From Thermoanaerobaculia bacterium (GTDB lineage: Bacteria; Acidobacteriota; Thermoanaerobaculia; UBA5066; Gp7-AA6): 61,574 bases of DNA. A model generated the notes under the pieces. That model was not told the DNA's origin. It did not search any database and saw nothing but the letters and a program-made list of their open reading frames with translations. Location of the stretch: the NCBI GenBank assembly GCA_033853815.1, contig JAWOLE010000065.1, forward strand, positions 1-61,574. Reading direction: 5' to 3'. The translations under genes and the position numbers were made by a program. Below, piece after piece: positions 3,124 through 50,700 of the stretch. The first letter of the stretch is position 1, and the number at the start of each line of letters is the position of its first letter.

Positions 3124-4112
3124 CGAGCGCCTGCCAGCAACGCCTCTTCGGCCTCGCGGGCGAGGTCGGGACCGAAAGGAAAGAGCTTGCCGAGGTTGCC
3201 CTCGCGCGCGATCGGCGCGAGGTCGCGGCCGGATTCGTCGATCCACCGGGCCGCGGCGTGCAGGAGCGCCGCCCGGTGCTCGTCCCCCGACGCGGCCACC
3301 GCCTTCTCTTCCAGGCGCCCCGCGGCGGCGGCGTTTGCCGCGGGCTCGTGCAACCCGACGGGGCGCGGCGGGACGGTCGCGAGGCCGAGCCGAGCGCAGC
3401 AATCGCGAAGCCGCTCCTGCGCCAGGCTCGCCTGGGCGAAGTCGCCGTGGTGGACGAGATCGAAGAGGCCGTCCGACGACTCGGGATGGGAGGCGCTCGC
3501 GGCTTCCAGGGCCAGACGTCTGGCCTGACCGTCCTCGGCGAGCGGCACCGACGCCAGGAACCGGGCGCCGGACGCGGCCGCGCGGCCGACGGCGTCCTCC
3601 ACGACCTCCGGCGTCGCGGTCCACCCGGGCACGAAGGGCAGAAGCCAGCCCGCCGGGATGCCGGCCGCGAGCGCGGCCGCGAGCCCCTCGCCCGGAGGCT
3701 CGAGGCCGGGAAACCAGACGAACAGGGCCACGACGGCCGATCCGGGCTCCCGCGGGAGACCCGCGGGCTCGGGCTCGAGCAGGTAGACGGCCCGCCCCGA
3801 GGCCCGCGCTCCCTCGGCGGCCGCGCGGTAGGAACCGCGAACCTCCTCGGCGTCGGAGCACGGGCCGACCAGGACGGGGCCGGCGGGTCCGCGCAGAAGT
3901 GCGGTCCGCCAGACGCCCGCCTCGTGCGGCCCGGCGAGCATGGTGCCCTCGGACGCCCGGGAGAAGAAGCGGCGCTCGACGGGATCGAAGCGGAAACGCG
4001 GGGCGCCCACCTCGCCGGCGTAGGGAAAGGCCCTCGCCGCGATCCGACGGGAGGCGATCTCGAATTCCCCCGGGCGGACGATCGCGTTGCCGGAGGACTC
4101 GAAGACGATCAT
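3120..4112 (-). CDS. Hypothetical protein, translationally coupled between ribE and hemW
   Basis: Track ORF 3120..4148. The internal ATG at 4112 (MIVFESS...) overlaps the ribE stop (ATGA) and its own stop overlaps the hemW ATG. No motif recognised. Confidence 0.55.
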   Translation of the reverse strand: MIVFESSGNAIVRPGEFEIASRRIAARAFPYAGEVGAPRFRFDPVERRFFSRASEGTMLAGPHEAGVWRTALLRGPAGPVLVGPCSDAEEVRGSYRAAAEGARASGRAVYLLEPEPAGLPREPGSAVVALFVWFPGLEPPGEGLAAALAAGIPAGWLLPFVPGWTATPEVVEDAVGRAAASGARFLASVPLAEDGQARRLALEAASASHPESSDGLFDLVHHGDFAQASLAQERLRDCCARLGLATVPPRPVGLHEPAANAAAAGRLEEKAVAASGDEHRAALLHAAARWIDESGRDLAPIAREGNLGKLFPFGPDLAREAEEALLAGAR

Positions 4113-14337: not shown

Positions 14338-14520
14338 ACGTCGCTTCGCGCTTGCGCGGGCTCTGCGCCTTCGGCGCACCGGCGAGCGGCTCGCCCGGAT
14401 GCGGGCTCGACCGCTAGCCTGACCCCGCTCAAGCGCTACGCTCCCGCGGCGCGCGCCTCGGCTTTCGGCGCAGGCGGTCGCTGCGCGACCGGCGCCGAGA
14501 GTTTCAAATACGAGGGCTAA
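14338..14520 (-). repeat. Family-1 modular GC-rich REP/BIME-like element, copy a (modules M2+M3, inverted)
   Basis: The reverse complement reads TAGCCCTCGTATTTGAAACTCTCGGCGCCGGTCGCGCAGCGACCGCCTGCGCCG (M2), then GAGGCGCGCGCCGCGGGAGCGTAGCGC...GCGGTCGAGCCCGCATCCGGGCGAGCCGCTCGCCGGTGCGC (M3). Confidence 0.85.
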
Positions 14521-16310: not shown

Positions 16311-17969
16311 GGCGGCCTCCAGGAGAGCGCGCGCGTGCTTCCAGGCGGTTTCGGTGACCCTGGCTCCCGCCAGCATCCGCGCGATCTCCTCGACCCTCCC
16401 CTCGCCCTCGAGAACGTGGACGGCCACGACGGTCCTTCCGCGAACCTCCCCTTTTTCGGCCCGGAAGTGACGGTCGGCCACCGCGGCGATCTGCGGGACG
16501 TGGGTCACGCAGAGGACCTGCCGGCGCGCGGCGAGCGCCCGCAGCTTCCTGCCGACCACCTCGGCCGTTCGCCCCCCGATCCCCGAGTCCACTTCGTCGA
16601 AGACGAGCGTTCGCCCCGACGCGGCCCGGTCCGCCGCCACCGATTGGATCGCGAGCTGGAGCCTCGCGAGCTCCCCCCCGGAGGCAATCTTCTCGACGGG
16701 CTTCTCCGGCTCTCCGGGATTGGGCGCGAACAGGAAGGAGACCGTCTCGAGCCCCGTTCTCCTCGGCCCGTCTCCCGCGGCCGGCTCGAGCGCCACCCGG
16801 AAACGCGCCTTTTCCATGGCCAGGGCCGCAAGCTCTTTTTCGACGGCCGCTCCGAATCTTCCCGCCGCGGCGCGCCTCTTCGCCGACAGGGCCCCGGCGG
16901 CCTTCGTGTAGAGAAGCCGCGCGCCGTGCTCCTCCTTCTGGCGGCGCTCGAGCGCGTCCTCGATGTTGGAGAGCTCGGCCTGTTCCTTCTTCAGCTTCTC
17001 GCCGAGAGCGAGCACGTCGGAGAGCGTCCCCCCGTACTTGCGCTTCAAGCGCGAGAGCTTCTCCAGCCGCGATTCGATCCTGGTCAGCCGGTCCGGGTCG
17101 CTCTCGATCTGCCCCGCGGTGTCGCGCGCCGCCGCCGCGAGATCGGCGATCCGGCGCTTGAGCTCCTCGGCCTCCTCCCTATGCGCGGCCTCCTGAGGAT
17201 CGATCGCGGCGAGCTCGGCAAGAGCCCTTGCCGCCTCCCCCAGGCGATCCGCCGCCGATCCCTCCCCCTCCGAAAGCGCGGCCAGGGCCGTCTCGGCGGC
17301 CAGCCGGATCCGATCGGCGTGGGTGAGCCTCGCGCGCTCGCGCGACAGCTCTTCCTCTTCCGTCTCGTCGGGCGCCGCGTCCGCGATCTCACGGATCTGG
17401 TAATCGAGCATCTCGAGCCTCGCCGCCCGGTCGCGCCGCGAGGCTTGCAGCGCTTCGAGCGCTTCCCGCGCCTCCGCCCAGGCGCGCGCTGCATCGCCCG
17501 TCGCCCGGCGCTCTTCCTCGGCGCGGGCGAAAGCGTCGAGCAGATCGAGCGGCATCTCGGCCTCCGTCAGCTCCCGCTCCGAGTTCTGTCCGTGAATCGC
17601 CACGAATCGCTCGCCCAGGCGGGCCAGCGTGCGAACAGAAACCGGTTCATCCTCGACGAACACCCGACCCTTCCCGTCCGGGGAGAGCTCCCGGCGCAGG
17701 AGCACTGTCTGCCCGTCCGGCAGGCCGGCTTCCGCGAGCAGCCGCCGCGACGGCGCGTCCGTCTCGAATTCTCCCGAGACGGAAAGCCGCGGCGACCCCT
17801 GGCGGATGAGATCGACCGAGCCGCGCCCGCCGGCGAGCAGCGAGAGTGCGTCCACGAGGATCGACTTGCCCGCGCCCGTCTCTCCGGTGATCACCGTGAG
17901 CCCCGGCTCGAGCTCGATCTCGAGGTCCTCGACGATCGCGAGGTTCTTGACCATGAGCCTTCTCAGCAT
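16302..17969 (-). CDS. recN: DNA repair protein RecN
   Basis: GETGAGKSI Walker A, long coiled coil, ASGGELARL signature, LVFDEVDSGIGG. Confidence 0.93.
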   Translation of the reverse strand: MLRRLMVKNLAIVEDLEIELEPGLTVITGETGAGKSILVDALSLLAGGRGSVDLIRQGSPRLSVSGEFETDAPSRRLLAEAGLPDGQTVLLRRELSPDGKGRVFVEDEPVSVRTLARLGERFVAIHGQNSERELTEAEMPLDLLDAFARAEEERRATGDAARAWAEAREALEALQASRRDRAARLEMLDYQIREIADAAPDETEEEELSRERARLTHADRIRLAAETALAALSEGEGSAADRLGEAARALAELAAIDPQEAAHREEAEELKRRIADLAAAARDTAGQIESDPDRLTRIESRLEKLSRLKRKYGGTLSDVLALGEKLKKEQAELSNIEDALERRQKEEHGARLLYTKAAGALSAKRRAAAGRFGAAVEKELAALAMEKARFRVALEPAAGDGPRRTGLETVSFLFAPNPGEPEKPVEKIASGGELARLQLAIQSVAADRAASGRTLVFDEVDSGIGGRTAEVVGRKLRALAARRQVLCVTHVPQIAAVADRHFRAEKGEVRGRTVVAVHVLEGEGRVEEIARMLAGARVTETAWKHARALLEAAKN

Positions 17970-18016: not shown

Positions 18017-18025
18017 ATTATCTCA
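18017..18025 (-). promoter_or_regulatory. Possible extended -10 (TGAGATAAT) upstream of recN
   Basis: The reverse complement of 18017-18025 reads TGAGATAAT, 48 nt upstream of the recN ATG. No convincing -35 or LexA box seen. Confidence 0.3.
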
Positions 18026-18089
18026 GGCCTGCAGAGACCGTGAGGCGGAGGCTCCGATTCGGGAAGGGCCTGGTCTTGAAGCTCCTCGC

Positions 18090-18470
18090 TTCGAGACGCC
18101 CCAGCGTCGGGCCACCTCCCTCGTCGGCACGCTCCGGCCCTGCCGCCAAAAGAGCGAACCGGGCCGTCGCTGGTCGCTCAGTCGCAGGGATTGCGACGCA
18201 AACGATCCAGCTCGTCGTGCTCCTTCGCTCATCGCCTCCTCTGGGAGGCGTCCCGCCGCCGGGGCTCTTACCCGAACTTAAGCCCGAACTGTCAGCCACG
18301 GAGCCGGCGGCGTTCCCCGGAGGAGGCCTTGTCCGAGGGCACACGCCACAGCGGGTGACTAAGACTCGCTATCCCTGTGCCCGAGTGACCAGAGCGGCGG
18401 CCCTCCGGTGATGTTTGCGGCCTGGCCGCCGCGTGCCGACGAGGGGAACGACGACGGATCCGGGGCGCCT
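18090..18470 (-). repeat. Family-2 ~370-nt non-coding element, copy A (MITE-like or structured RNA)
   Basis: Perfect 15-nt inverted termini CCCTCGTCGGCACGC (18118-18132) and GCGTGCCGACGAGGG (18431-18445). The reverse complement aligns block by block with the copies at 38.6 and 47.3 kb. Confidence 0.85.
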
Positions 18471-18529
18471 TTTCCATCTCGCTGCCCCTAAAGGGCCTCA
18501 CAGATGGTGAAACCAGAGCACTACCCGCC

Positions 18530-36956: not shown

Positions 36957-37604
36957 ATGGGGAGGCCGGAGAGGGTCACGCGGGAGCAGGTCCTGGCGCA
37001 GGCGCGGCGGGCGTTTGCCGAACGGGGCTTCGATGGGACGACGCTCGCGGACATCGGCGCGCGCCTGGGCGTCTCCCCCGCGGCGCTGCTGCGCCACGCC
37101 CCCTCCAAGGAAGCGCTCTTCGCCCTGGCGATGGAGTCGGAGCCGGCCGGCGAGGCCCTCCCGACCGATTTCCTGGCGTCGGTCTCTGTCGGCGAGGACC
37201 CGGCGCGCGTCCTCCGGAAGCTCGCCCGCGAGTTCATCCCGTTCATCGAGTTGAAGATGGGGGAGAACATCGCCCGCTTCCTGCGAGCCCGCAACGAGGA
37301 GGAAGCCCGGACGATCCGGCTCCCCTTCGACCCCCGCAAGAAGACCGCCCCTCCGGCCCGGGCGATTCGCGCTCTTGAGGCCTACCTTCGCCGTGCGCGC
37401 GAGGCCGGCTCGGTCTCGGTCCGCAGCGCCCGGGCGGCCGCGCTCGCGTTCCTGGGGTCGCTGCAGTCCTACGTCTTCCTGCACCGCGTCCTGCGAATCG
37501 AGCCGCCGATCCCGCTCGAGGGATACCTGGACACGGTGATCGACATCTGGAGGCGCGGAGCGATACGCGGGAGAACCGAAACCCGCGGGAGACACGAGAC
37601 ATGA
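36957..37604 (+). CDS. TetR-family transcriptional regulator
   Basis: N-terminal HTH RRAFAERGFDGTTLADIGARLGVSPAALLRHAPSKEALF. Confidence 0.88.
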   Translation: MGRPERVTREQVLAQARRAFAERGFDGTTLADIGARLGVSPAALLRHAPSKEALFALAMESEPAGEALPTDFLASVSVGEDPARVLRKLAREFIPFIELKMGENIARFLRARNEEEARTIRLPFDPRKKTAPPARAIRALEAYLRRAREAGSVSVRSARAAALAFLGSLQSYVFLHRVLRIEPPIPLEGYLDTVIDIWRRGAIRGRTETRGRHET

Positions 37605-38536
37605 AACGCAGAAGGACGATCCTCCTCGTCCTCCTGGTCCTGGCCGCCGCCGGCGCGCTCGGCTGGTGGCTCGGGGTGCGGAAGAAGGAGAAGCCGCTCC
37701 TTCTCTCGGGAGCGATCGAGGCGCGCGACGTCGAGGTGGGCTCGCTTCTGGGAGGCCGCGTCGCGAAGATCCTCGTCGAGGAGGGCTCGCGGGTCTCCGC
37801 CGGCCAGCCGATCGTCCAGTTCGAGACCGACCTCGTCGATCTGCAGATCCAGCAGCAGAAGGCCAAGGTCGAACAGGCGCGGGCCAACCTCGTCAAGGCT
37901 CTGCGGGGCCCCCGCGTCGAGGAGATCGCGAGCGCCCGGGCGCAGGCGCAGAATGCCGAGAAGGAGAGGCTCCGCCAGAAGGTCCTCCTCGAGAAAGGAG
38001 TCACGCCCCAGCAGAATTACGATGCCGCCGCCACGCAGGCGAAGACGTCCCTCGAGGCGCTCAAGGAGCTGGAGAGGGGAAACCGCCCCGAGGACATCGC
38101 CGCGGCGCGGGCGACGCTGGAGGCCGAAGAGAGGCAGTTGGGTTATCTCGAGCGCCAGAGGGCGGAGTCCGTCGTCACGGCGCCGGCCGCGGGGGTCATC
38201 GAGTCGATGGACCTGCGCCCGGGGGACCTCGTTCCTCCCAACCAGCCCGTCGCCAAGATGCTCGAGCCCTCACAGCTCTGGGTGCGCGTCTACGTCCCCG
38301 AACCGCAGCTCGGGCGTGTGCGCGTGGGCCAGAGAGCCGCCCTGACGGTGGACACGTTTCCGAAGAAGGAGTTTCCGGGGAAGGTCGTCGAGATCCGGAC
38401 CCAGTCGGAGTACACGCCTCGCAACGTGCAGACGCTCGATCAGCGCATGGACCAGGTCTTCGGCGTGAAGGTGGCCATCGATCCGTCGCCGGAGCTGAAG
38501 CCGGGCATGGCGGCCACGGTAAGGCTCGTGGAGTAA
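37601..38536 (+). CDS. HlyD-family membrane fusion / periplasmic adaptor protein
   Basis: Single N-terminal TM, coiled-coil hairpin, beta-barrel C-terminus. The ATG overlaps the tetR stop (ATGA). Confidence 0.85.
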   Translation: MKRRRTILLVLLVLAAAGALGWWLGVRKKEKPLLLSGAIEARDVEVGSLLGGRVAKILVEEGSRVSAGQPIVQFETDLVDLQIQQQKAKVEQARANLVKALRGPRVEEIASARAQAQNAEKERLRQKVLLEKGVTPQQNYDAAATQAKTSLEALKELERGNRPEDIAAARATLEAEERQLGYLERQRAESVVTAPAAGVIESMDLRPGDLVPPNQPVAKMLEPSQLWVRVYVPEPQLGRVRVGQRAALTVDTFPKKEFPGKVVEIRTQSEYTPRNVQTLDQRMDQVFGVKVAIDPSPELKPGMAATVRLVE

Positions 38537-38540
38537 GAGA

Positions 38541-38579
38541 GTGCGAGGTGCGAGACAAGCGCGAAGTGCGAGACGCGAG
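38541..38579. repeat. Heptamer array GTGCGAG (4 units, one 11-nt interruption)
   Basis: gtgcgag gtgcgag acaagcgcgaa gtgcgag acgcgag, directly after the hlyD-family stop. Confidence 0.8.
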
Positions 38580-38606
38580 GTTCTAGTGGTATGTGACATT
38601 CGAATC

Positions 38607-38987
38607 GGTGGTGGCGGAAGGCCCGCCCCGGAGCCTGCGGCGTTCCCTGCCGGGGCACGCTCGCGCAGGCCGTTACTGGAAGAACCGGCGCTCGCTGAGG
38701 GCTCCTCGCAGTCTCAGCTTGGTGCCGGCCGCATCATTCCATGCTCGTCACCCATCACCCCGTACGGGAACGCCTCCGGCTCCGGGGCTCCAATCCGGCG
38801 TATCGCCTCGCTGGAGCCACGGCGGCGGCGGAACCTCCCGGAGGAGGCCATGAGCGAAGGAGCACACGGCAGACTCTCCTTCGCCACGCTGCCCGTGCGA
38901 CTGAGCGACGAGCGACGGCCCGGAACTCTTCTGCGCGGCCGGGCCGGAGCGTGCCGACGAGGGAGGGCGCAGCCGACGCCGTGGTGG
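38607..38987 (+). repeat. Family-2 element, copy B
   Basis: Termini CCCTGCCGGGGCACGC (38645-38660) and GCGTGCCGACGAGGG (38949-38963). Internal blocks are shared with copies A and C. Flanked by GTGGTGG direct repeats (38608-38614, 38981-38987). Confidence 0.85.
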
Positions 38988-39068
38988 ATTCGAAAGGGAG
39001 TTCATTCCCGCCGGCCGGTATCGATTCAGCTGTTACATGGAGCTAGGTCAATGAGCCGAACAGGGATC

Positions 39069-39104
39069 GAACTGGCGAACTTAGAACTTGGAACCTAGAA
39101 CTTC
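39069..39104. repeat. Heptamer array GAACYTN x5
   Basis: gaactgg c gaactta gaacttg gaaccta gaacttc, 13 nt upstream of the ABC ATPase ATG. Confidence 0.85.
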
Positions 39105-39116
39105 GCACTATCGATC

Positions 39117-40115
39117 ATGTCTGAACAACAGCAGCGCGACTACGGCATCATCGTCGAGGGCGTCTCCCGCGACTTCGGGCCGGTTCGCGCGCTCGACAAG
39201 GTCTCGCTCCACGTGCCGCGCGGCGAGATCTATGGCCTGCTCGGCCCCAACGGCTCGGGAAAATCGACGCTGATCCGCATCCTCTGCGGCCTCCTCGTCC
39301 CGACCGAGGGGCAGGCCTTCGTCGACGGCCTCGATGTCGCGAAGGAGGGAGAAGAGGTCCGCCGCCGGATCGGATACGTCCCGCAGAAGTTTTCCCTCTA
39401 TGAGGACCTGACCGTTCTCGAGAACCTGAACTTTTTCGCGTCCGTCTACGGCCTGAAGAACGCGCAGTTGAAGGAGCGCCGCGAGTGGGCGATCGGGCTG
39501 ACATCGATCGGCCCCTACCGGCAGCGGCTGGCGGCCCAGCTCTCCGGAGGCTGGAAGCAGCGCCTGGCCCTCGCCGCTTCGCTCATGCACCGCCCGCGCG
39601 TGCTCTTCCTCGACGAGCCGACGGCCGGAATCGACCCCGTCGCCCGCCGGGAGCTCTGGAACCTTCTCTTCACGCTCGCCGGCGAGGGAGTGACGCTGCT
39701 CGTTTCCACGCATTACATGGACGAGGCGGAGCGCTGCGGCCGCGTGGCCTACCTCTACCTCTCACGAATGCTCGTCGAAGGAGACCCGGCGGACCTGACG
39801 AAGCTTCCCGAGATCACTCCGGCGGGGACGCGGCGCGTGGAAGCCGACTGCGAGGAGGGCGCCGCCGCCGTCATGAGCCAGGCGCGCAGCCTCCCCTACG
39901 TCGAGGACGTCACGATCTTCGGCAACGCCCTGCACCTCCTGGTGAAAGCCGAGGTCGCCGACGACAGGATCGCGCGCGACCTCGAGGAGGCCTCGCACGC
40001 CAAAGTCACGATCCGGCCGATCGAGGCCTCGCTCGAGGACGTCTTCGTCCGGCTGACGAGGCTCCAGATCGAGCAGCGCGGCGAGATCCCGGCCGCGGCG
40101 GAGGCGACGCGATGA
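39117..40115 (+). CDS. ABC-2-type transporter ATP-binding protein
   Basis: GLLGPNGSGKST, LSGGWKQRLALA, LFLDEPTAGIDP. Confidence 0.92.
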   Translation: MSEQQQRDYGIIVEGVSRDFGPVRALDKVSLHVPRGEIYGLLGPNGSGKSTLIRILCGLLVPTEGQAFVDGLDVAKEGEEVRRRIGYVPQKFSLYEDLTVLENLNFFASVYGLKNAQLKERREWAIGLTSIGPYRQRLAAQLSGGWKQRLALAASLMHRPRVLFLDEPTAGIDPVARRELWNLLFTLAGEGVTLLVSTHYMDEAERCGRVAYLYLSRMLVEGDPADLTKLPEITPAGTRRVEADCEEGAAAVMSQARSLPYVEDVTIFGNALHLLVKAEVADDRIARDLEEASHAKVTIRPIEASLEDVFVRLTRLQIEQRGEIPAAAEATR

Positions 40116-41218
40116 GAGGCTTCCTGCCGGTCTTGAAGAAAGAGGCGATGCAGATGATCCGGGACCGCGGGACGCTCCAGTTCGCTCTTTTCGTCCCCGC
40201 CATCCAGCTCGTGCTCTTCGGCGTGATCGACACCAACGTCAAGCACGTCCGCACCGTCGTCTTCGATCAGAGCCGAACCCAGGAGAGCCGCCAGCTCCTG
40301 AACGATTTCGTCAACACGAGCTACTTCGACATCGTGGGTTACGCCCCCTCGGATGCGGCCCTGAAGGAGGCGATCGTGGCGGGCCACGCCTCGACCGGAG
40401 TCGAGATCCCGCCGGACTACGCCCGCCGGCGCCTGAACGGCGAGCCGGCCGACGTCCTGGTCCTGATCGACGGCTCGGACTCGACAATCTCCAGCGCGGC
40501 CCTCGCCGCGGCCAACGGAGTCGCCTTCGCGCGGTCGGCAACGGAGCTGGCCGAGCGCGCCGGCGCGAAGGACCTTCCCATCCGCACGCACCCGCTCTTG
40601 CTCTTCAACCCCGACTCGAGGAGCGCCAACCTCCTGATCCCCGGCCTCGTGGCGGTCCTGCTGACGTTCTCGGGCACCCTACTCGCGGCCTTCGCGATCG
40701 TCCGCGAGCGGGAGCGGGGGACGCTCGAACAGCTCATGGTGACGCCCGCCTCGCCTGTCGCCGTCGTGCTCGGGAAGCTCCTCCCCTATCTCGCCCTGGC
40801 CTTCATGCAGCTGCTCTTCGTCCTGTTCCTCATGACGGTCGTCTTCCGCGTGCCGATCCACGGGAGCCTCCCGCTGCTGCTCGGTCTCTCGGCCATCTAC
40901 CTCTTCGCGCTGCTCTCGATGGGCCTGCTCGTCTCCTCGCACGCGCGCACGCAAATGGAAGCGATCCAGCTCTCGCAGATGCTGCTCCTCCCCTCGATCA
41001 TGCTCTCCGGATACATCTTCCCTCTCTCCTCGCTCCCGGCCGCCCTGCGCGTGGTCTCCCAGGTCCTCCCCGCCACGCACTTCATCGCGATCGCTCGCGG
41101 CGTCATCATCCGGGGGGCAAGCTTCGGCGATCTCTGGCAGAGCGTGGCGGCGCTCCTCGTGATCGCCGCGGTCCTCGTCGCGGGGAGCACGCGGGCCTTC
41201 CACAAGACCATCACGTAA
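40112..41218 (+). CDS. ABC-2-type transporter permease
   Basis: MRGFLPVLKKEAMQMIRDRGTLQF start overlaps the ATPase stop (ATGA). One N-terminal TM, a large loop, and five C-terminal TMs. Confidence 0.85.
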   Translation: MRGFLPVLKKEAMQMIRDRGTLQFALFVPAIQLVLFGVIDTNVKHVRTVVFDQSRTQESRQLLNDFVNTSYFDIVGYAPSDAALKEAIVAGHASTGVEIPPDYARRRLNGEPADVLVLIDGSDSTISSAALAAANGVAFARSATELAERAGAKDLPIRTHPLLLFNPDSRSANLLIPGLVAVLLTFSGTLLAAFAIVRERERGTLEQLMVTPASPVAVVLGKLLPYLALAFMQLLFVLFLMTVVFRVPIHGSLPLLLGLSAIYLFALLSMGLLVSSHARTQMEAIQLSQMLLLPSIMLSGYIFPLSSLPAALRVVSQVLPATHFIAIARGVIIRGASFGDLWQSVAALLVIAAVLVAGSTRAFHKTIT

Positions 41219-47248: not shown

Positions 47249-47304
47249 GGGCCCATATTAACCGCGCGGAGCGTTCCTCTCTTCCCCCGGCGACGGTGTT
47301 ACGC

Positions 47305-47675
47305 AAAAGCCGCCCTGGCGCCGTCGGCATTTTCCGCGTCGGCACGCGCCGGCCTGCCCGCAAGACTCCCAACCGGCCGGCGCTGAGGGTTCCTCGCAGT
47401 CTCGCGTAGGCGCCGGTTTCGCTCCTCCATGCTCGTCACCCATCACCTCCTCGGAAAACGCCGCCGTCTCCAGAGCTGATAGCTCCGCTTAAGTGAACCT
47501 GCCAGCCCCGGCGGCGGGACGCCTCCCGGAGGAGGCTTGAGAGAGGGAGCACACCACACAGGATCAGTCGCCTCACTGTCTGTGCGACCGAACGACAAGC
47601 GACGGCCCGGTTCTTGTATTGCGGCAGGGCCGTCGCGTGCCGACCAGGGAGGCGGGCCCGACGCCGGGGCGACGA
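47305..47675 (+). repeat. Family-2 element, copy C
   Basis: Termini CGCGTCGGCACGCG (47335-47348) and CGCGTGCCGACCAGGG (47634-47649). Shares CATGCTCGTCACCCATCACC, GCCCCGGCGGCGGGACGCCTCCCGGAGGAGGC and AGCGACGGCCCGG...GGGCC blocks. Confidence 0.85.
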
Positions 47676-47731
47676 ATTCGCCCACGGTTCAATCAGATGC
47701 TGCCGGCGGTGTGGTACTTTCGCCGGTCTCC

Positions 47732-50700
47732 ATGAATCGGCGCCTCCCAAGCGTCGCCCTGCTGCTCTTCGGGTCGGGGCTGACGGCCCTGATCTACCAG
47801 GTCGCGTGGATGCGGGAGCTGCGGCTCGTCTTCGGCTTCTCGACGGCCGCCTCCGCGGCGGTGGTCGCGATCTTCATGGGAGGCCTGGGCCTGGGAGGAT
47901 GGCTCCTGGGCCGGAAGGCCGACGCCGCCGGAAATCCCCTCGCGTTCTACGGCCGTCTGGAGCTCGGGGTGGCCGGCTCGGCGGCGCTGACGCCACTCTG
48001 GGTCTTTCTGGTCCAGAAGGGTTACATCGCGCTCGGAGGGACCTTCGCCCTGGGCCTTTTTGCAGGCACCCTGGTCCGGCTTCTCTTCTCTGCGATCGTG
48101 CTTGGCGTGCCGACCGTGCTGATGGGGGGCACGCTTCCCGCGGCGACGCGGGCGGTCGAAACCTCTCGGGACTCCCGCCGCCGCTTCCTCGCTCTGCTCT
48201 ACGGGTCGAATACTCTCGGGGCCGTCGCCGGAACGCTTCTCTCGACATTCGTGATGCTGGAGTCCTTCGGCACCAGAGAGACGCTCTGGCTTGCCTGCGC
48301 CGTAAACGCCCTCGTGGGGCTGGCGGCGGTCTGGCTCTCCCGGGTCGCCGCTCCCACTCCGGCAGCGAGCGGCGAAACGGCCGAGGCCGCCCAGAAGCGC
48401 CGCGAGGGGGAGCGCCCGGGTTCGCGGGAAGTGAGAGGCCGGGCAGCGGCGCCGCCGGCTGCGCTCCCCAACCGCAGATTCGTGCTCTCCGCGGCCGCCG
48501 GAGTGGGGTTCGCGTTCTTCCTGATGGAGCTCGTGTGGTATCGGATGCTCGCGCCGCTGCTCGGCGGCTCGACGTACACCTTCGGCCTGATTCTGGCGGT
48601 CGCGCTCGCCGGAGTCGGCCTGGGATCGGCGGCCTACTCGCGCTCGGGCCGCGGGCCGGCGAGACTCTCGAGCTTCGCGGCGACGTGCGCGCTGGAGGCC
48701 CTGTGCCTGGCCGTCCCCTACGCTCTCGGCGACAGAATCGCGGTCCTGGCGGCGCAGGTCGGACCGAAAGGGGCTTTCGCGCTGGCCGGCTACGCGGCGG
48801 GATGGTCCCTGGTGGCCGCGATCGTGGTGTTCCCCGCGGCCTTCGTCGCGGGCTTTCAGTTTCCGCTGCTGGTCGCCCTGCTCGGGAAGGGAGACGAGAG
48901 GGTCGGCACGGATGTCGGGCTGGCCTACTTCTGGAACACGGTCGGCGGTATCGCGGGCTCTCTTGCCGGAGGGTTCGGTCTGCTGCCACTGCTGTCGGCG
49001 ACGGGAACCTGGGTGTTTGTCGTCGGTTTCCTCTGCGCCCTCGGTCTCCTCGCCCTCCTCCCTGCCGGGCGCGGCGCCGGATGGAAGGGGCGGGCCTGGT
49101 TCCCCATCGGCACGGCGGCTCTGAGTCTCTTGCTCCTGCTCTCGACAGGCCCGACAGCCGCCTGGCGCCACAGCGCGATCGGGGCCGGGCGCGCAGACCT
49201 TCGAGGGGCATCCCCAAACGCCGTGGAGGAGTGGCTTCGGGACCGGCGGCGGCAGCTGGCCTGGCAGGCCGACGGCCTGGAGTCGAGCGTGGCGGTCCTT
49301 AAGAAACCGGGCGGCTACTCCTTCGCGATCGGGGGCAAGGTGGACGGCAACGTTCGGGACGACGCGCCGACGGGCGTCATGGGCGGGTTGATCGGAGCGG
49401 CGCTCTCTCCGGATCCCCGACGGGCGCTGGTGATCGGGCTCGGTACGGGGGAGACGGCCGGCTGGCTGGGCGCCGTTCCCGGCCTCGACCGGGTGGACGT
49501 GGTCGAGCTCGAGCCGGCGATCCTGCGCGTGGCACGCGATTGCGCGCCCGCCAACCAGAATGTCCTCTCGAACCCCAAGGTGCACGTCGTGATCGGCGAC
49601 GCGCGCGAGTTCCTGCTGACCTCGCGCGAGACCTACGACTTCATCTTCTCCGAACCGTCCAACCCCTACCGGGTCGGCATCTCGAGCCTCTTCACGGAGG
49701 ACTTCTACCGCGCCGCGCGCGCGCGCCTGAAGCCCGGCGGCATCTTCCTCCAGTGGCTGCAGGCCTACGAGGTGGATGCCATCACGGTCCGGACGGTCTA
49801 CCGAACGCTCCTCGCGGCCTTTCCCGAAGTGGAAACGTGGTTCACGCGCCCGGCCGATTTGCTACTCGTCGCGTCGGGCAAGCCGATCGCCTACAACGCC
49901 GCGCGCCTCTCCGAGCGGCTGCGTGCGGAGCCCTTCGTAACCGCCATGGAGGAGGTCTGGCGGGCGAGAGGACTCGAGGGTTTTCTCTCCCACCACCTGG
50001 GGCGCGCCTCTCTGGCCCGGGCGCTCGCCGGGGAGCCGGGCGCGGGAGAGAACAGCGACGACCGCAACCTGGTCGAGTTCGGGTTCGCTCGCAGCCTGGG
50101 ACAGCGCGGCTCCTTCAACGTGGAAGAGCTGCGGCGACGCGCCCGCTCGCGCGGGGAGGACAGGCCCGCCGTCTCAGGAGCCGTGGACTGGGCGGCGGTC
50201 GATCGGTGGCGGGTGACGGCTGTGACCTCGGATGGAGGGGTCCCGCCGGTTGACCCGGACATGACGGGAGAGGCCCTTCGACAGGCTCTCGCCCAGAAGA
50301 GCTTCATCAACGGAGAGGACGCAGTAGTCCTCGCGAACTGGCGCAGGCAGCCCTGGGAGCCGGTCGGGTCGGTCGAGGAGTTCGTCGTGGCGGAAGCCCT
50401 CGCCCAGGGAGGAGACGAGGGGGCGATCGCCTGGATCGACCGGCTGCGCGCGCCGCACCCGGTCGAAGCCGACCTCCTTCTTGCGCGCCTGCGCTGGGCG
50501 CAGGGGCGCCCGCAGGAGGCCGTCGATGCCCTCGAACGCGCCTTCGCCGCCTATCGCCGCGATCCGTGGCCTCTGCTGACGGCAGTCCGCAACGCCTTCC
50601 CGATGGTGCACGACATCGCCACGAAGGACGAGCGCCTCGCCGCCCGGCTCTGCGACGCCCTGGCGCACCCCTTCGCCGTCGCCCTGCTCGACGACGAGCG

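What the first reader, a model, noticed from the sequence alone, without database searches (positions are those of the whole stretch)
18090..18470. Unclassified ~370-nt non-coding element with long inverted termini, three copies, always upstream of and co-oriented with a gene
The copies lie at 18090-18470 (reverse orientation), 38607-38987 and 47305-47675. The cores are about 315-330 nt and are bounded by CCCTCGTCGGCACGC ... GCGTGCCGACGAGGG. These termini are perfect in this copy (18118-18132 / 18431-18445) and carry a few mismatches in the others. Weaker complementarity continues about 25 nt further out (GGCGCCCCGG..CGTCG versus CGACGC..GGGGCG). Three conserved internal blocks were seen:
- CATGCTCGTCACCCATCACC, present in two copies
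- GCCCCGGCGGCGGGACGCCTCCC-RGA-GGAGGC, which forms a small hairpin GCCTCC-nnnn-GGAGGC
- GCGACTGAGCGAC.AGCGACGGCCCGG...GGGCCGGAGCGTGCCGACGAGGGAGG, which contains a GGCCC/GGGCC stem
The copies differ by many small indels. These destroy the only shared reading frame (MSEGA...), so conservation is at the DNA/RNA level. Each copy ends 57-130 nt before a start codon on its own strand: recN at 17969, the ABC ATPase at 39117, and the membrane spermidine-synthase-like gene at 47732. It could be a MITE, given the terminal inverted repeats and lack of coding capacity. It could also be a structured leader or ncRNA with a long closing helix. No match to any RNA family I can recognise by eye (not RNase P, tmRNA, SRP, 6S, GEMM or cobalamin).
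Basis: seen in the sequence. Interest (0 to 1): 0.65.

Follow-up and report, generated by a model that had tools for sequence, protein, structure and literature searches.

The report
Palindromic miniature transposon family in Thermoanaerobaculia
The three ~380-nt repeats are old, partly truncated copies of a previously undescribed miniature transposon of soil Acidobacteriota (class Thermoanaerobaculia) that sits between genes and is transcribed with them; it is not a leader RNA for the genes downstream.

Summary
Three related non-coding copies lie at about 18071-18525 (-), 38582-39047 (+) and 47290-47685 (+).

The MITE reading is supported; the "structured leader, always co-oriented with the next gene" reading is not.

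- **Family size:** 95 copies at 81 distinct sites were recovered from at least 10 Acidobacteriota/Thermoanaerobaculia MAGs and from soil metagenomes. 89 of 90 non-redundant copies are intergenic.
- **True ends:** They are 19-bp terminal inverted repeats, GGTAGTGACCTGGTTTGAG, flanked by 8-bp target-site duplications: perfect at 5 independent sites, 6-7 of 8 at 3 more.
- **Empty sites:** close relatives lack copies A and B. The intergenic gaps there are 49-51 nt and 0-23 nt, against 560 and 580 nt in the window.
- **Orientation:** the downstream gene is co-oriented 36 times and opposed 36 times.
- **Interior:** a long imperfect palindrome made of two ~170-nt modules. The 3' module is strongly conserved, nearly constant in length, and keeps its helices through compensatory changes.
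- **Other tests:** it has no coding periodicity, no Rfam match and no clear RNA-strand signature. Metatranscriptome contigs contain it.

The transposase was not found. The GGnnnTG tip plus the 8-bp duplication suggest an IS6/IS26- or IS1-type enzyme. This is a new member of a known kind, with a residual chance that the conserved module acts as RNA.

The parts
18071..18525 (-). Copy A, whole element (~455 nt). The 5' terminal repeat is kept; the 3' terminal repeat is truncated.
   Evidence: nhmmer E 1.5e-112. Bounded by comparison with the empty sites in L058 and L056. The intergenic gap is 560 nt here against 49-51 nt in relatives.
18507..18525 (-). Copy A 5' terminal inverted repeat remnant, GGTAGTGCTCTGGTTTCAC (15 of 19 to the family consensus GGTAGTGACCTGGTTTGAG)
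18295..18466 (-). Copy A left module ('unit A', type A2). Its own inverted ends are GCCCCGGATCCGTCGTCGTTCCCC and GGGGAACGCCGCCGGCTCCGTGGC.
   Evidence: Inverted repeat I4. The same module type occurs in L007, L039, L030 and L019.
18096..18266 (-). Copy A right module ('unit B', 171 nt), the conserved core of the family
   Evidence: Metatranscriptome contigs match 18121-18268 exactly.
38582..39047 (+). Copy B, whole element with decayed outer inverted repeats (TCTAGTGGTATGTGACATTCGAATC ... GATTCAGCTGTTACATGGAGCTAGG). It lies within a ~550-nt insertion between the membrane-fusion adaptor gene and the ABC ATPase gene.
   Evidence: Empty sites in L060-L063, where the two genes overlap by 4 nt or are 23 nt apart.
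38625..38788 (+). Copy B left module (unit A, type A1, containing CATGCTCGTCACCCATCACC)
   Evidence: Inverted repeat I1
38815..38987 (+). Copy B right module (unit B, 173 nt)
47290..47685 (+). Copy C. No terminal repeats are recognisable. It fills most of a 462-nt divergent intergenic region.
47312..47476 (+). Copy C left module (unit A, type A1)
   Evidence: Inverted repeat I1
47504..47672 (+). Copy C right module (unit B, 169 nt)
   Evidence: An RNA contig spanning 47642-47761 runs from its end into the downstream gene.
14455..14515 (+). Solo ~60-nt hairpin module GGCTTTCGGCGCAGGCGGTCGC-TGC-GCGACCGGCGCCGAGAGTTTCAAA. The same module is embedded in other subfamilies of the element.
   Evidence: Weak nhmmer hits, E 0.003-0.007; sequence read; compared with L013, L050 and L067

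Best explanation
The three repeats are copies of a non-autonomous DNA transposon (a MITE) family of Thermoanaerobaculia.

**Anatomy.** A complete element is 400-475 bp. From the outside in it has:
- a 19-bp terminal inverted repeat, GGTAGTGACCTGGTTTGAG;
- a short linker;
- a left module of about 165-170 nt that comes in several interchangeable types;
- a ~27-nt central hairpin;
- the conserved right module, 'unit B', of 167-175 nt;
- a linker and the second terminal repeat.

The left half is a diverged reverse complement of the right half. The element is therefore one long imperfect palindrome, and each module can also close on itself.

**Mechanism.** A transposase encoded elsewhere recognises the terminal repeats and inserts the element at a staggered 8-bp cut, which leaves an 8-bp duplication. 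The steps differ in how well they are shown:
- Shown: the ends and the duplications.
- Inferred: the enzyme. The GGnnnTG tip and the 8-bp duplication are the signature of IS6/IS26-type elements, and IS1-type elements share the tip.

**State of the window copies.** Insertions persist only between genes. All three copies are old. A has lost its 3' tip, B has decayed ends and C has none, so they are probably immobile.

**Transcription.** The copies are transcribed by read-through from neighbouring genes. Copy B sits inside an operon. The RNA can fold into very stable hairpins.

**Effect on the host.** Any effect would be a side effect of insertion rather than the reason the sequence exists. Candidates are uncoupling of formerly overlapping genes, RNA processing sites, or transcript stability. 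This last part is inference.
For: **Multi-copy and dispersed.** There are 3 copies in 61.6 kb here and 35 copies in 10 species-level MAGs, including at least 11 in one 4.46-Mb contig. Soil metagenome contigs added 57 more. DNA depth over the element is 75-160 against 2-7 in its flanks in two soil runs.

**Terminal repeats with 8-bp duplications.**

| Locus | Duplication | Match | Element length |
|---|---|---|---|
| L070 | GATTTCCG | 8/8 | 400 bp |
| L072 | GTTGCCGA | 8/8 | 474 bp |
| L076 | CTATTTCG | 8/8 | 399 bp |
| L013 | CGCCGTGC | 8/8 | 472 bp |
| L002 | GAAGGATC | 8/8 | 471 bp |
| L067, L021 | - | 7/8 | - |
| L084 | - | 6/8 | - |

. An 89-bp element made of the terminal repeats alone sits next to the L013 copy and shares the same 8-mer.

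**Empty orthologous sites.**
- hexapeptide-repeat gene to recN: 51 nt in L058 (RecN 92% identical) and 49 nt in L056 (79%), against 560 nt in the window.
- adaptor gene to ABC ATPase: overlapping, or 23 nt apart, in four relatives (ATPase 91-95% identical), against 580 nt in the window.
- No copy anywhere in 66 kb of these orthologous loci.

**Position and orientation.** 89 of 90 non-redundant copies are intergenic, and orientation relative to the downstream gene is 36:36.

**Not coding.** Column variability by codon position is 0.66/0.61/0.66, and several copies carry stops or frameshifts.

**Ends.** The GGnnnTG tip is a stated feature of IS6/IS26 elements, which make 8-bp duplications, and is shared with the IS1 family (PMC6807381).

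**Not a known RNA.** No Rfam family matches.
Against: - No transposase with matching ends was found in the 785 kb held, so the mobilising enzyme is unproven.
- None of the three window copies has both terminal repeats or a recognisable duplication. Their membership rests on homology to complete copies and on the empty sites.
- Only about 9 of 81 sites show both ends.
- Unit B is more ordered than a decaying transposon interior should be:
  - 40% of its columns are at most 3% variable and 23% are at least 30% variable, and the variable columns are clustered (lag-1 autocorrelation 0.46, 0 of 5000 permutations). Part of this comes from the search patterns, which fix 23 and 26 of the columns.
  - Its length is nearly constant.
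  - G.A mismatches are conserved, and 15 pairs show compensatory changes.
- RNA contigs cover the unique stretch of copy A's unit B at depth 11.5, while both flanking genes read 0.
- Between co-directional genes the element is sense 21 times and antisense 6 times (p 0.006). These points leave room for an RNA-level role.
Confidence: 0.8

Rival explanations
1. Unit B, alone or with its partner module, is a functional structured RNA that merely rides on, or was domesticated from, the transposon. It could be a cis-acting stability or processing element in read-through transcripts, or a multi-copy small RNA. Selection on the RNA would then explain its conservation. This reading is compatible with the transposon origin.
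For: - **Helices kept by covariation.** 90.4% of cells are paired. 15 pairs changed on both sides. The covariation score is 0.088, against 0.042 in shuffles (0 of 500 reach it) and 0.006-0.024 when partners are slid. One pair switches A-U (34 copies) to G-C (23 copies).
- **Conserved G.A mismatches,** including a tandem G.A/A.G.
- **Constant length** of 167-175 nt in 65 copies.
- **Clustered conservation**.
- **RNA contigs** match copy A's unique stretch exactly at depth 11.5 while the flanking genes read 0.
- **Orientation** between co-directional genes is sense 21, antisense 6.
- **G.U exceeds A.C,** 35 to 19 cells.
Against: - Compensatory change is also expected in a DNA palindrome, through hairpin-templated repair or co-evolution of the arms. 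It does not single out RNA.
- The G.U excess falls to 20 against 13 once the two dominating columns (15 G.U in one pair, 6 C.A in another) are removed, which is not significant.
- The orientation bias could vanish if the 16 contig-edge sites with an unknown upstream gene were antisense.
- No sigma-70-type promoter or intrinsic terminator was found in copies A and B.
- The RNA evidence comes from unstranded assembled contigs of a multi-copy sequence.
- Close relatives do without the copies at the recN and ABC-transporter sites.
- No Rfam family matches.
Confidence: 0.2
2. It is a structured 5' leader or riboswitch-like regulator of the gene downstream of each copy.
For: In the window all three copies precede a co-oriented gene by 25-106 nt. 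The fold is very stable: -222, -199 and -177 kcal/mol, with z = -5.05 for copy A. An SD-like GGAGGAGG sequence is sequestered in a hairpin.
Against: - Family-wide the downstream gene is co-oriented 36 times and opposed 36 times.
- The downstream genes are unrelated to one another.
- Orthologues of recN and of the ABC ATPase lack the element.
- Conserved upstream motifs of recN and of the spermidine-synthase-like gene lie downstream of the element.
- Fold z-scores for copies B and C are only -0.97 and -2.22.
- The SD-like hairpin is replaced by GCTGGCGGC in whole subfamilies.
Confidence: 0.03
3. It is a REP/REPIN-like element mobilised by a RAYT-type (HUH tyrosine) transposase. The cue is GTAG inside the terminal GGTAGTG, and Acidobacteria have RAYT-like genes flanked by inverted repeats.
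For: The tip contains GTAG. The architecture is palindromic and modular, and the elements are intergenic. PMC3733652 describes GTAG-tagged repeats and Acidobacteria-specific repeat-flanked tyrosine transposases.
Against: - Five independent perfect 8-bp duplications were found. By established knowledge, IS200/IS605-type single-strand transposition makes none.
- The elements are 400-475 bp, not 20-40 bp units or ~100-bp doublets.
- Both ends are equivalent inverted repeats.
- No tyrosine transposase was seen beside any copy, though flanking genes were not scanned against protein-family libraries.
Confidence: 0.05
4. It encodes a small protein (MSEGA...RLSDQRRPG...), translated from the strong SD-like sequence plus ATG inside unit B.
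For: GGAGGAGGCGATG is a near-ideal ribosome-binding site plus start codon. The frame keeps its length for about 25 codons in most copies. Codons 2-5 vary mainly at the third position.
Against: - There is no overall 3-base periodicity (0.66/0.61/0.66).
- In-frame stops occur in L048, L020, L036, L044 and L005.
- A 1-nt deletion shifts the frame in a whole subfamily while the nucleotides stay conserved.
- The start codon is ATG, GTG, CTG, TTG or absent.
- The frame diverges after codon 25 because the loop length varies.
- The GAA-to-GAG change covaries with a non-synonymous CTG-to-CCG change, as a base pair would.
Confidence: 0.02

Closest known systems
Bacterial MITEs derived from DDE insertion sequences, for example IS6/IS26- or IS1-type ends (comparison partly from my own knowledge; the end signature is from PMC6807381)
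   Same: Short size (400-475 bp), no coding capacity, terminal inverted repeats with a GGnnnTG tip, 8-bp target-site duplication, many dispersed intergenic copies, and presence/absence polymorphism between relatives.
   Different: No parent insertion sequence has been identified. The interior is not a simple deletion remnant. It is a long palindrome of two ~170-nt modules with strongly conserved blocks and interchangeable left modules.
Correia elements (CREE/NEMIS) of Neisseria and ERIC/IRU elements of enterobacteria (from my own knowledge)
   Same: Intergenic, imperfectly palindromic elements that are co-transcribed with neighbouring genes and fold into long RNA hairpins. They can sit inside operons. 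Effects on processing or stability are side effects of insertion.
   Different: Those elements are 100-160 bp, and Correia elements duplicate TA. This family is three to four times longer, duplicates 8 bp, is GC-rich, has a two-module interior, and is restricted so far to Thermoanaerobaculia-type Acidobacteriota. No RNase III or promoter function has been tested here.
Mosaic intergenic repeats: BIME (E. coli), RIME (rhizobia), BOX (pneumococcus) (from my own knowledge)
   Same: Built from a small set of modules combined in different orders. The same right module occurs here with at least four or five different left modules, and a ~60-nt hairpin module also occurs solo (window 14455-14515).
   Different: Those families lack defined terminal inverted repeats with target duplications. 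Here the modules are carried between transposon ends.
REP/REPIN elements with RAYT transposases (PMC3733652)
   Same: GTAG lies near the tip. The elements are palindromic, extragenic, often downstream of genes, and plausibly transcribed.
   Different: These elements make 8-bp target duplications and are 400-475 bp long. No associated tyrosine transposase was seen.

Membership tests
MITE (non-autonomous terminal-inverted-repeat transposon) | Terminal inverted repeats at both ends | tested here: met
   19-bp GGTAGTGACCTGGTTTGAG and its complement at both ends of 7 non-redundant elements, plus a GGTAGTGGGTCA variant in L013 and L002. In the window only copy A keeps one (15/19, 18507-18525). Copy B has TAGTG-type remnants and copy C has none.
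MITE (non-autonomous terminal-inverted-repeat transposon) | Target-site duplication of fixed length directly outside the repeats | tested here: met
   8/8 at L070, L072, L076, L013 and L002; 7/8 at L067 and L021; 6/8 at L084. Not visible at the three window copies.
MITE (non-autonomous terminal-inverted-repeat transposon) | Small and without coding capacity | tested here: met
   399-475 bp. No codon periodicity; stops and frameshifts among copies.
MITE (non-autonomous terminal-inverted-repeat transposon) | Insertion polymorphism: empty orthologous sites | tested here: met
   Copy A: 49-51 nt in L056 and L058 against 560 nt. Copy B: overlap or 23 nt in L060-L063 against 580 nt. Copy C could not be tested because upstream synteny is lost.
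MITE (non-autonomous terminal-inverted-repeat transposon) | A cognate autonomous element with the same ends encoding the transposase | tested here: inconclusive
   No terminal-repeat pair more than 700 bp apart. Whole genomes could not be scanned.
IS6/IS26- or IS1-type ends | GGnnnTG at the outer tip | tested here: met
   GGTAGTG; the feature is as stated in PMC6807381.
IS6/IS26- or IS1-type ends | 8-bp duplication (IS6/IS26), or 8-9 bp (IS1, from my own knowledge) | tested here: met
IS6/IS26- or IS1-type ends | Transposase of that family in the same genomes | not testable with these tools
Only 8-kb pieces of the host genomes are held.
REP/REPIN with RAYT | No target duplication; 20-40 bp GTAG-tagged hairpin units or their doublets | tested here: not met
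   8-bp duplications and 400-475 bp elements; definitions from PMC3733652.
Cis-regulatory leader / riboswitch | Fixed position and orientation upstream of the regulated gene class | tested here: not met
   Downstream gene co-oriented 36, opposed 36, over 81 sites. The neighbouring genes are unrelated.
Cis-regulatory leader / riboswitch | Conserved upstream of orthologous genes | tested here: not met
   Absent upstream of the recN, ABC ATPase and spermidine-synthase-like orthologues in 11 loci.
Any curated RNA family (Rfam 15, including the acidobacterial motifs it holds) | Score at or above the family's gathering threshold | tested here: not met
   0 hits for the whole window. At E up to 10 around copies A and B there are only far sub-threshold chance matches, such as plant miRNA precursor models.
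Independent small-RNA gene | Own promoter and terminator; discrete transcript | tested here: inconclusive
   No sigma-70-like promoter or intrinsic terminator in copies A and B. RNA contigs exist but are unstranded and fragmentary.
Independent small-RNA gene | Strand-specific signature of RNA pairing (G.U tolerated, A.C not) | tested here: inconclusive
   G.U 35 cells in 16 pairs against A.C 19 cells in 11 pairs. This becomes 20 against 13 without the two dominating columns.

The most novel reading that the evidence does not exclude
The conserved 170-nt right module is a genuine structured RNA domain. It has a closing helix, a helix with a tandem G.A motif that encloses a constant-length 30-nt semi-variable stretch, and an invariant 12-bp stem. 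On this reading the module has been spread through Thermoanaerobaculia genomes by a transposon chassis and is kept after the ends decay, because in sense orientation it benefits the host transcript or acts in trans. It would be a multi-copy, transposon-borne regulatory RNA of a new class.
Probability: 0.15. Interest if true: 0.65.

Novelty: new member of a known kind. Interest (0 to 1): 0.3.

Why it matters
For genome annotation of soil Acidobacteriota, this family explains a recurrent class of long, GC-rich, hairpin-forming intergenic sequences. These break metagenome assemblies: many contigs start inside the element. They could also be mistaken for riboswitches or small-RNA genes.

The family documents active or recently active cut- or copy-and-paste transposition in an uncultured class, and gives a concrete end sequence with which to look for the transposase.

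It shows insertions into operons, between formerly overlapping genes, that are tolerated. That offers natural experiments on translational coupling and RNA processing.

If the conserved module proved to act as RNA, it would be an example of a regulatory RNA dispersed by a transposon. On present evidence it is an ordinary, if elaborate, mobile repeat.

Tried and rejected
- **Rfam.** At gathering score for the whole window, and at E up to 10 around copies A and B, only noise was found.
- **Coding.** Rejected by the lack of periodicity and by stops and frameshifts.
- **Hammerhead-like or group II domain V-like motifs.** Considered by eye (GAUGAGCGAA, CUGAGCGA, the AGC-stem). Rejected because motif order and spacing do not fit and no Rfam ribozyme or intron model matched.
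- **Orthologous flanks among the first 54 loci.** tblastn found only a paralogous ABC ATPase.
- **First strict search for ends and duplications.** It found only two copies. The consensus end emerged only after the metagenome loci were added.
- **Literature search for the end sequence as a string.** It returned only unrelated primers.
- **Viral contigs and plasmids:** no copy.
- **Promoter and terminator scans:** nothing.
- **Empty site for copy C.** Upstream synteny is not conserved in the nearest relatives, which are 73-76% identical.
- **Stranded RNA evidence.** Only assembled contigs were available.
- **First look-up of P0002** failed on a server error and was repeated.
- **A covariance model** was not built. 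nhmmer run without its speed filters (--max) had already found all copies, and a model would not separate RNA from DNA palindrome.
Full report
**1. The observation**

The three copies exist where stated. They align over about 400 columns at 76% mean identity. A profile built from them finds exactly these three places in the window, at E of 1e-112 or lower. The perfect 15-nt inverted pair in copy A, its weaker outward extension, the three conserved blocks and the small GCCTCC/GGAGGC hairpin are all present.

Each copy also matches the profile on its opposite strand (88, 73 and 31 bits). The left half is therefore a diverged reverse complement of the right half.

The window is 68.5% G+C. RecN, ABC ATPase and fused MFS/spermidine-synthase homologues place the organism in Thermoanaerobaculia, Acidobacteriota.

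**2. Not a known RNA and not coding**

Rfam 15 gives no hit at gathering score in the whole window. At E up to 10 around copies A and B it gives only chance matches far below threshold.

The MSEGA frame has no support as a gene:
- Column variability by codon position is 0.66/0.61/0.66 over unit B.
- Several copies carry in-frame stops.
- One subfamily has a 1-nt deletion inside conserved nucleotides.
- The start codon varies or is missing.

**3. The family**

A pattern scan of one genome per species returned 54 loci. 35 true copies lie in 10 MAGs labelled Acidobacteriota or Thermoanaerobaculia, one of them labelled Gemmatimonadales. At least 11 copies sit in a single 4.46-Mb contig. A second, different pattern run against metagenome contigs added 57 copies. 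That makes 95 copies at 81 distinct sites.

No copy was found in viral contigs or plasmids. In two soil DNA runs, depth over the element is 75-160 against 2-7 in the flanks.

**4. Anatomy**

The right module, unit B, is 167-175 nt long in 65 distinct copies. It has:
- its own inverted ends, GCCCCGGCGGCGGGnCGCCTCCC and GGGAGGCGnCCCGACGCCGGGGC;
- a helix AGGAGCA/UGCGAC(U/C) with an internal tandem G.A, enclosing a semi-variable stretch of constant length (30 nt);
- an almost invariant stem, GCGACGGCCCGG/CCGGGCCGUCGC.

The left module comes in at least four or five types. The window holds two of them: A1 in copies B and C, A2 in copy A. Copies that at first looked like halves simply carry another left module.

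A ~60-nt hairpin module appears inside some elements in either orientation, and also solo in the window at 14455-14515. Some copies have lost the left module exactly between its inverted ends (L051, L020).

**5. True ends and mobility**

Outside the core, complete copies carry 19-bp terminal inverted repeats, GGTAGTGACCTGGTTTGAG (variant GGTAGTGGGTCA...), flanked directly by 8-bp direct repeats:

| Locus | Duplication | Match | Element length |
|---|---|---|---|
| L070 | GATTTCCG | 8/8 | 400 bp |
| L072 | GTTGCCGA | 8/8 | 474 bp |
| L076 | CTATTTCG | 8/8 | 399 bp |
| L013 | CGCCGTGC | 8/8 | 472 bp |
| L002 | GAAGGATC | 8/8 | 471 bp |
| L067, L021 | - | 7/8 | - |
| L084 | - | 6/8 | - |

. Each perfect match has a chance probability of about 1.5e-5. 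An 89-bp element consisting of the two terminal repeats alone abuts the L013 copy, with the same 8-mer at all three junctions.

Orthologous empty sites exist for two window copies:
- **Copy A.** The hexapeptide-repeat gene and recN are 51 nt apart in L058 (RecN 92% identical) and 49 nt apart in L056 (79%). In the window they are 560 nt apart.
- **Copy B.** In four relatives (ATPase 91-95% identical) the membrane-fusion adaptor gene and the ABC ATPase gene overlap by 4 nt or are 23 nt apart. In the window they are 580 nt apart.

None of the 11 orthologous loci holds a copy. Comparison with L056 shows that copy A has lost the last bases of its 3' terminal repeat, which explains the missing duplication. 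Copy C could not be tested because synteny is lost.

**6. Which enzyme**

The tip fits GGnnnTG. According to PMC6807381, this feature is present in most IS6/IS26-family elements, which duplicate 8 bp, and is shared with the IS1 family. No such transposase, and no terminal-repeat pair enclosing an ORF, is present in the 785 kb held. The assignment is therefore an inference.

A RAYT-type mechanism was considered because the tip contains GTAG (PMC3733652). It does not fit the 8-bp duplications.

**7. Relation to genes**

I called genes with a codon log-odds caller trained on the data. 89 of 90 non-redundant copies are intergenic. Over 81 distinct sites:

| Comparison | Count | p |
|---|---|---|
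| Downstream gene co-oriented vs opposed | 36 vs 36 | 1.0 |
| Upstream gene co-oriented vs opposed | 38 vs 21 | 0.04 |
| Between co-directional genes, sense vs antisense | 21 vs 6 | 0.006 |

The sense bias is not robust. 16 sites at contig edges have an unknown upstream gene and an opposed downstream gene, and they could hold the missing antisense cases.

The window's 3 of 3 co-orientation with the downstream gene is therefore a small-sample effect. In addition, conserved upstream motifs lie between the element and the start codon. These are CCTGAGATAATT for recN and TGTGGTAC..TTCGCC for the spermidine-synthase-like gene.

**8. DNA palindrome or RNA structure?**

On 65 copies the three-helix model is 90.4% paired. 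15 pairs changed on both sides, and the covariation score is 0.088. Shuffles give 0.042 (0 of 500 reach the observed value), and slid partners give 0.006-0.024. Variable columns are strongly clustered. Complementarity and some sequence blocks are therefore maintained.

This does not identify the molecule:
- Palindromic DNA arms can co-evolve without any RNA function.
- G.U (35 cells in 16 pairs) against A.C (19 cells in 11 pairs) is not a clear strand signature.
- The search patterns themselves fix 23 and 26 of the columns.
- Fold stability exceeds shuffles clearly only for copy A (z = -5.05, -0.97 and -2.22 for A, B and C).

**9. Transcription**

Two soil metatranscriptome runs hold contigs that match the window copies.
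- A 300-nt contig runs without mismatch from the end of the adaptor gene into copy B, at 38376-38675.
- Exact contigs cover copy A's unit B, including its unique stretch (18162-18246, depth 11.5), while recN and the upstream gene read 0.
- A 120-nt contig runs from copy C into the downstream gene.

The contigs are unstranded, and the sequence is multi-copy. They show presence in RNA, not an independent gene. No sigma-70-like promoter or intrinsic terminator was found in copies A and B.

**10. Verdict**

This is a new family of a known kind: a palindromic, modular MITE of Thermoanaerobaculia with 19-bp ends and 8-bp duplications. The window holds three old, probably immobile copies and one solo module.

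The leader and co-orientation idea is not supported.

The unusually ordered right module, its presence in RNA, and a possible sense bias leave a modest chance (about 0.15-0.2) of an RNA-level role. Stranded RNA data and a whole-genome census would decide that.

Noticed in passing
window 14455-14515: A solo ~60-nt hairpin module (GGCTTTCGGCGCAGGCGGTCGC-TGC-GCGACCGGCGCCGAGAGTTTCAAA) lies in a 240-nt intergenic region. The same module is embedded in several subfamilies of the element, in either orientation. It may be a separate small repeat that nests into the larger one.
   Followed up: partly
window 18021-18032 (- strand); L055-L058 upstream of recN: CCTGAGATAATT is conserved upstream of recN. 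It lies 7-8 nt before the ATG in three relatives, which looks like a leaderless arrangement. In the window and in the closest relative (L058) it lies about 45 nt before the ATG, so an extra ~45-nt segment sits between motif and start.
   Followed up: no
L013 7611-7699: An 89-bp element made only of the two terminal repeats sits directly beside the 472-bp element. The 8-mer CGCCGTGC is at all three junctions. This suggests repeated insertion at, or next to, an existing end.
   Followed up: partly
L002 about 2019-2030 and 2495-2530; L067 about 2655-2665 and 3140-3175: Two elements of different subfamilies are inserted at GATCCTTC within a GATCCTTCGCYRCGCTCAGRATGACAG motif. The motif looks like another widespread short repeat. 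This is either an orthologous site with module exchange or a preferred target.
   Followed up: no
window 38541-38572 and 39077-39103: Short reiterated heptamers flank copy B outside its recognisable ends: GTGCGAG three times on the left and (A/C)GAACTT three times on the right. The two flanks are partly complementary (GCGAGGTTCTAG against CTAGAACTTCGC). Their origin is unexplained.
   Followed up: no
window 36957-41218; L060-L063: Copy B interrupts a conserved TetR - membrane-fusion adaptor - ABC ATPase - ABC-2 permease operon. In relatives the adaptor and ATPase genes overlap by 4 nt, which suggests translational coupling. The window genome tolerates a 580-nt spacer there.
   Followed up: partly
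window 47690-47731; L117 1970-2000; L118 1730-1762: A conserved TGTGGTA(C/G)(C)TTCGCC motif lies about 15 nt upstream of the fused MFS/spermidine-synthase gene in the window and in two relatives whose upstream neighbours differ (BlaI/BlaR-like genes there).
   Followed up: no
L048 5026-5426: One full copy with a good 3' terminal repeat lies in a MAG labelled Gemmatimonadales. This is either a binning error or spread beyond Acidobacteriota.
   Followed up: no
L064-L116 (metagenome contigs): About a third of the metagenome contigs begin or end inside the element. The family is evidently a frequent assembly breakpoint in soil metagenomes.
   Followed up: no
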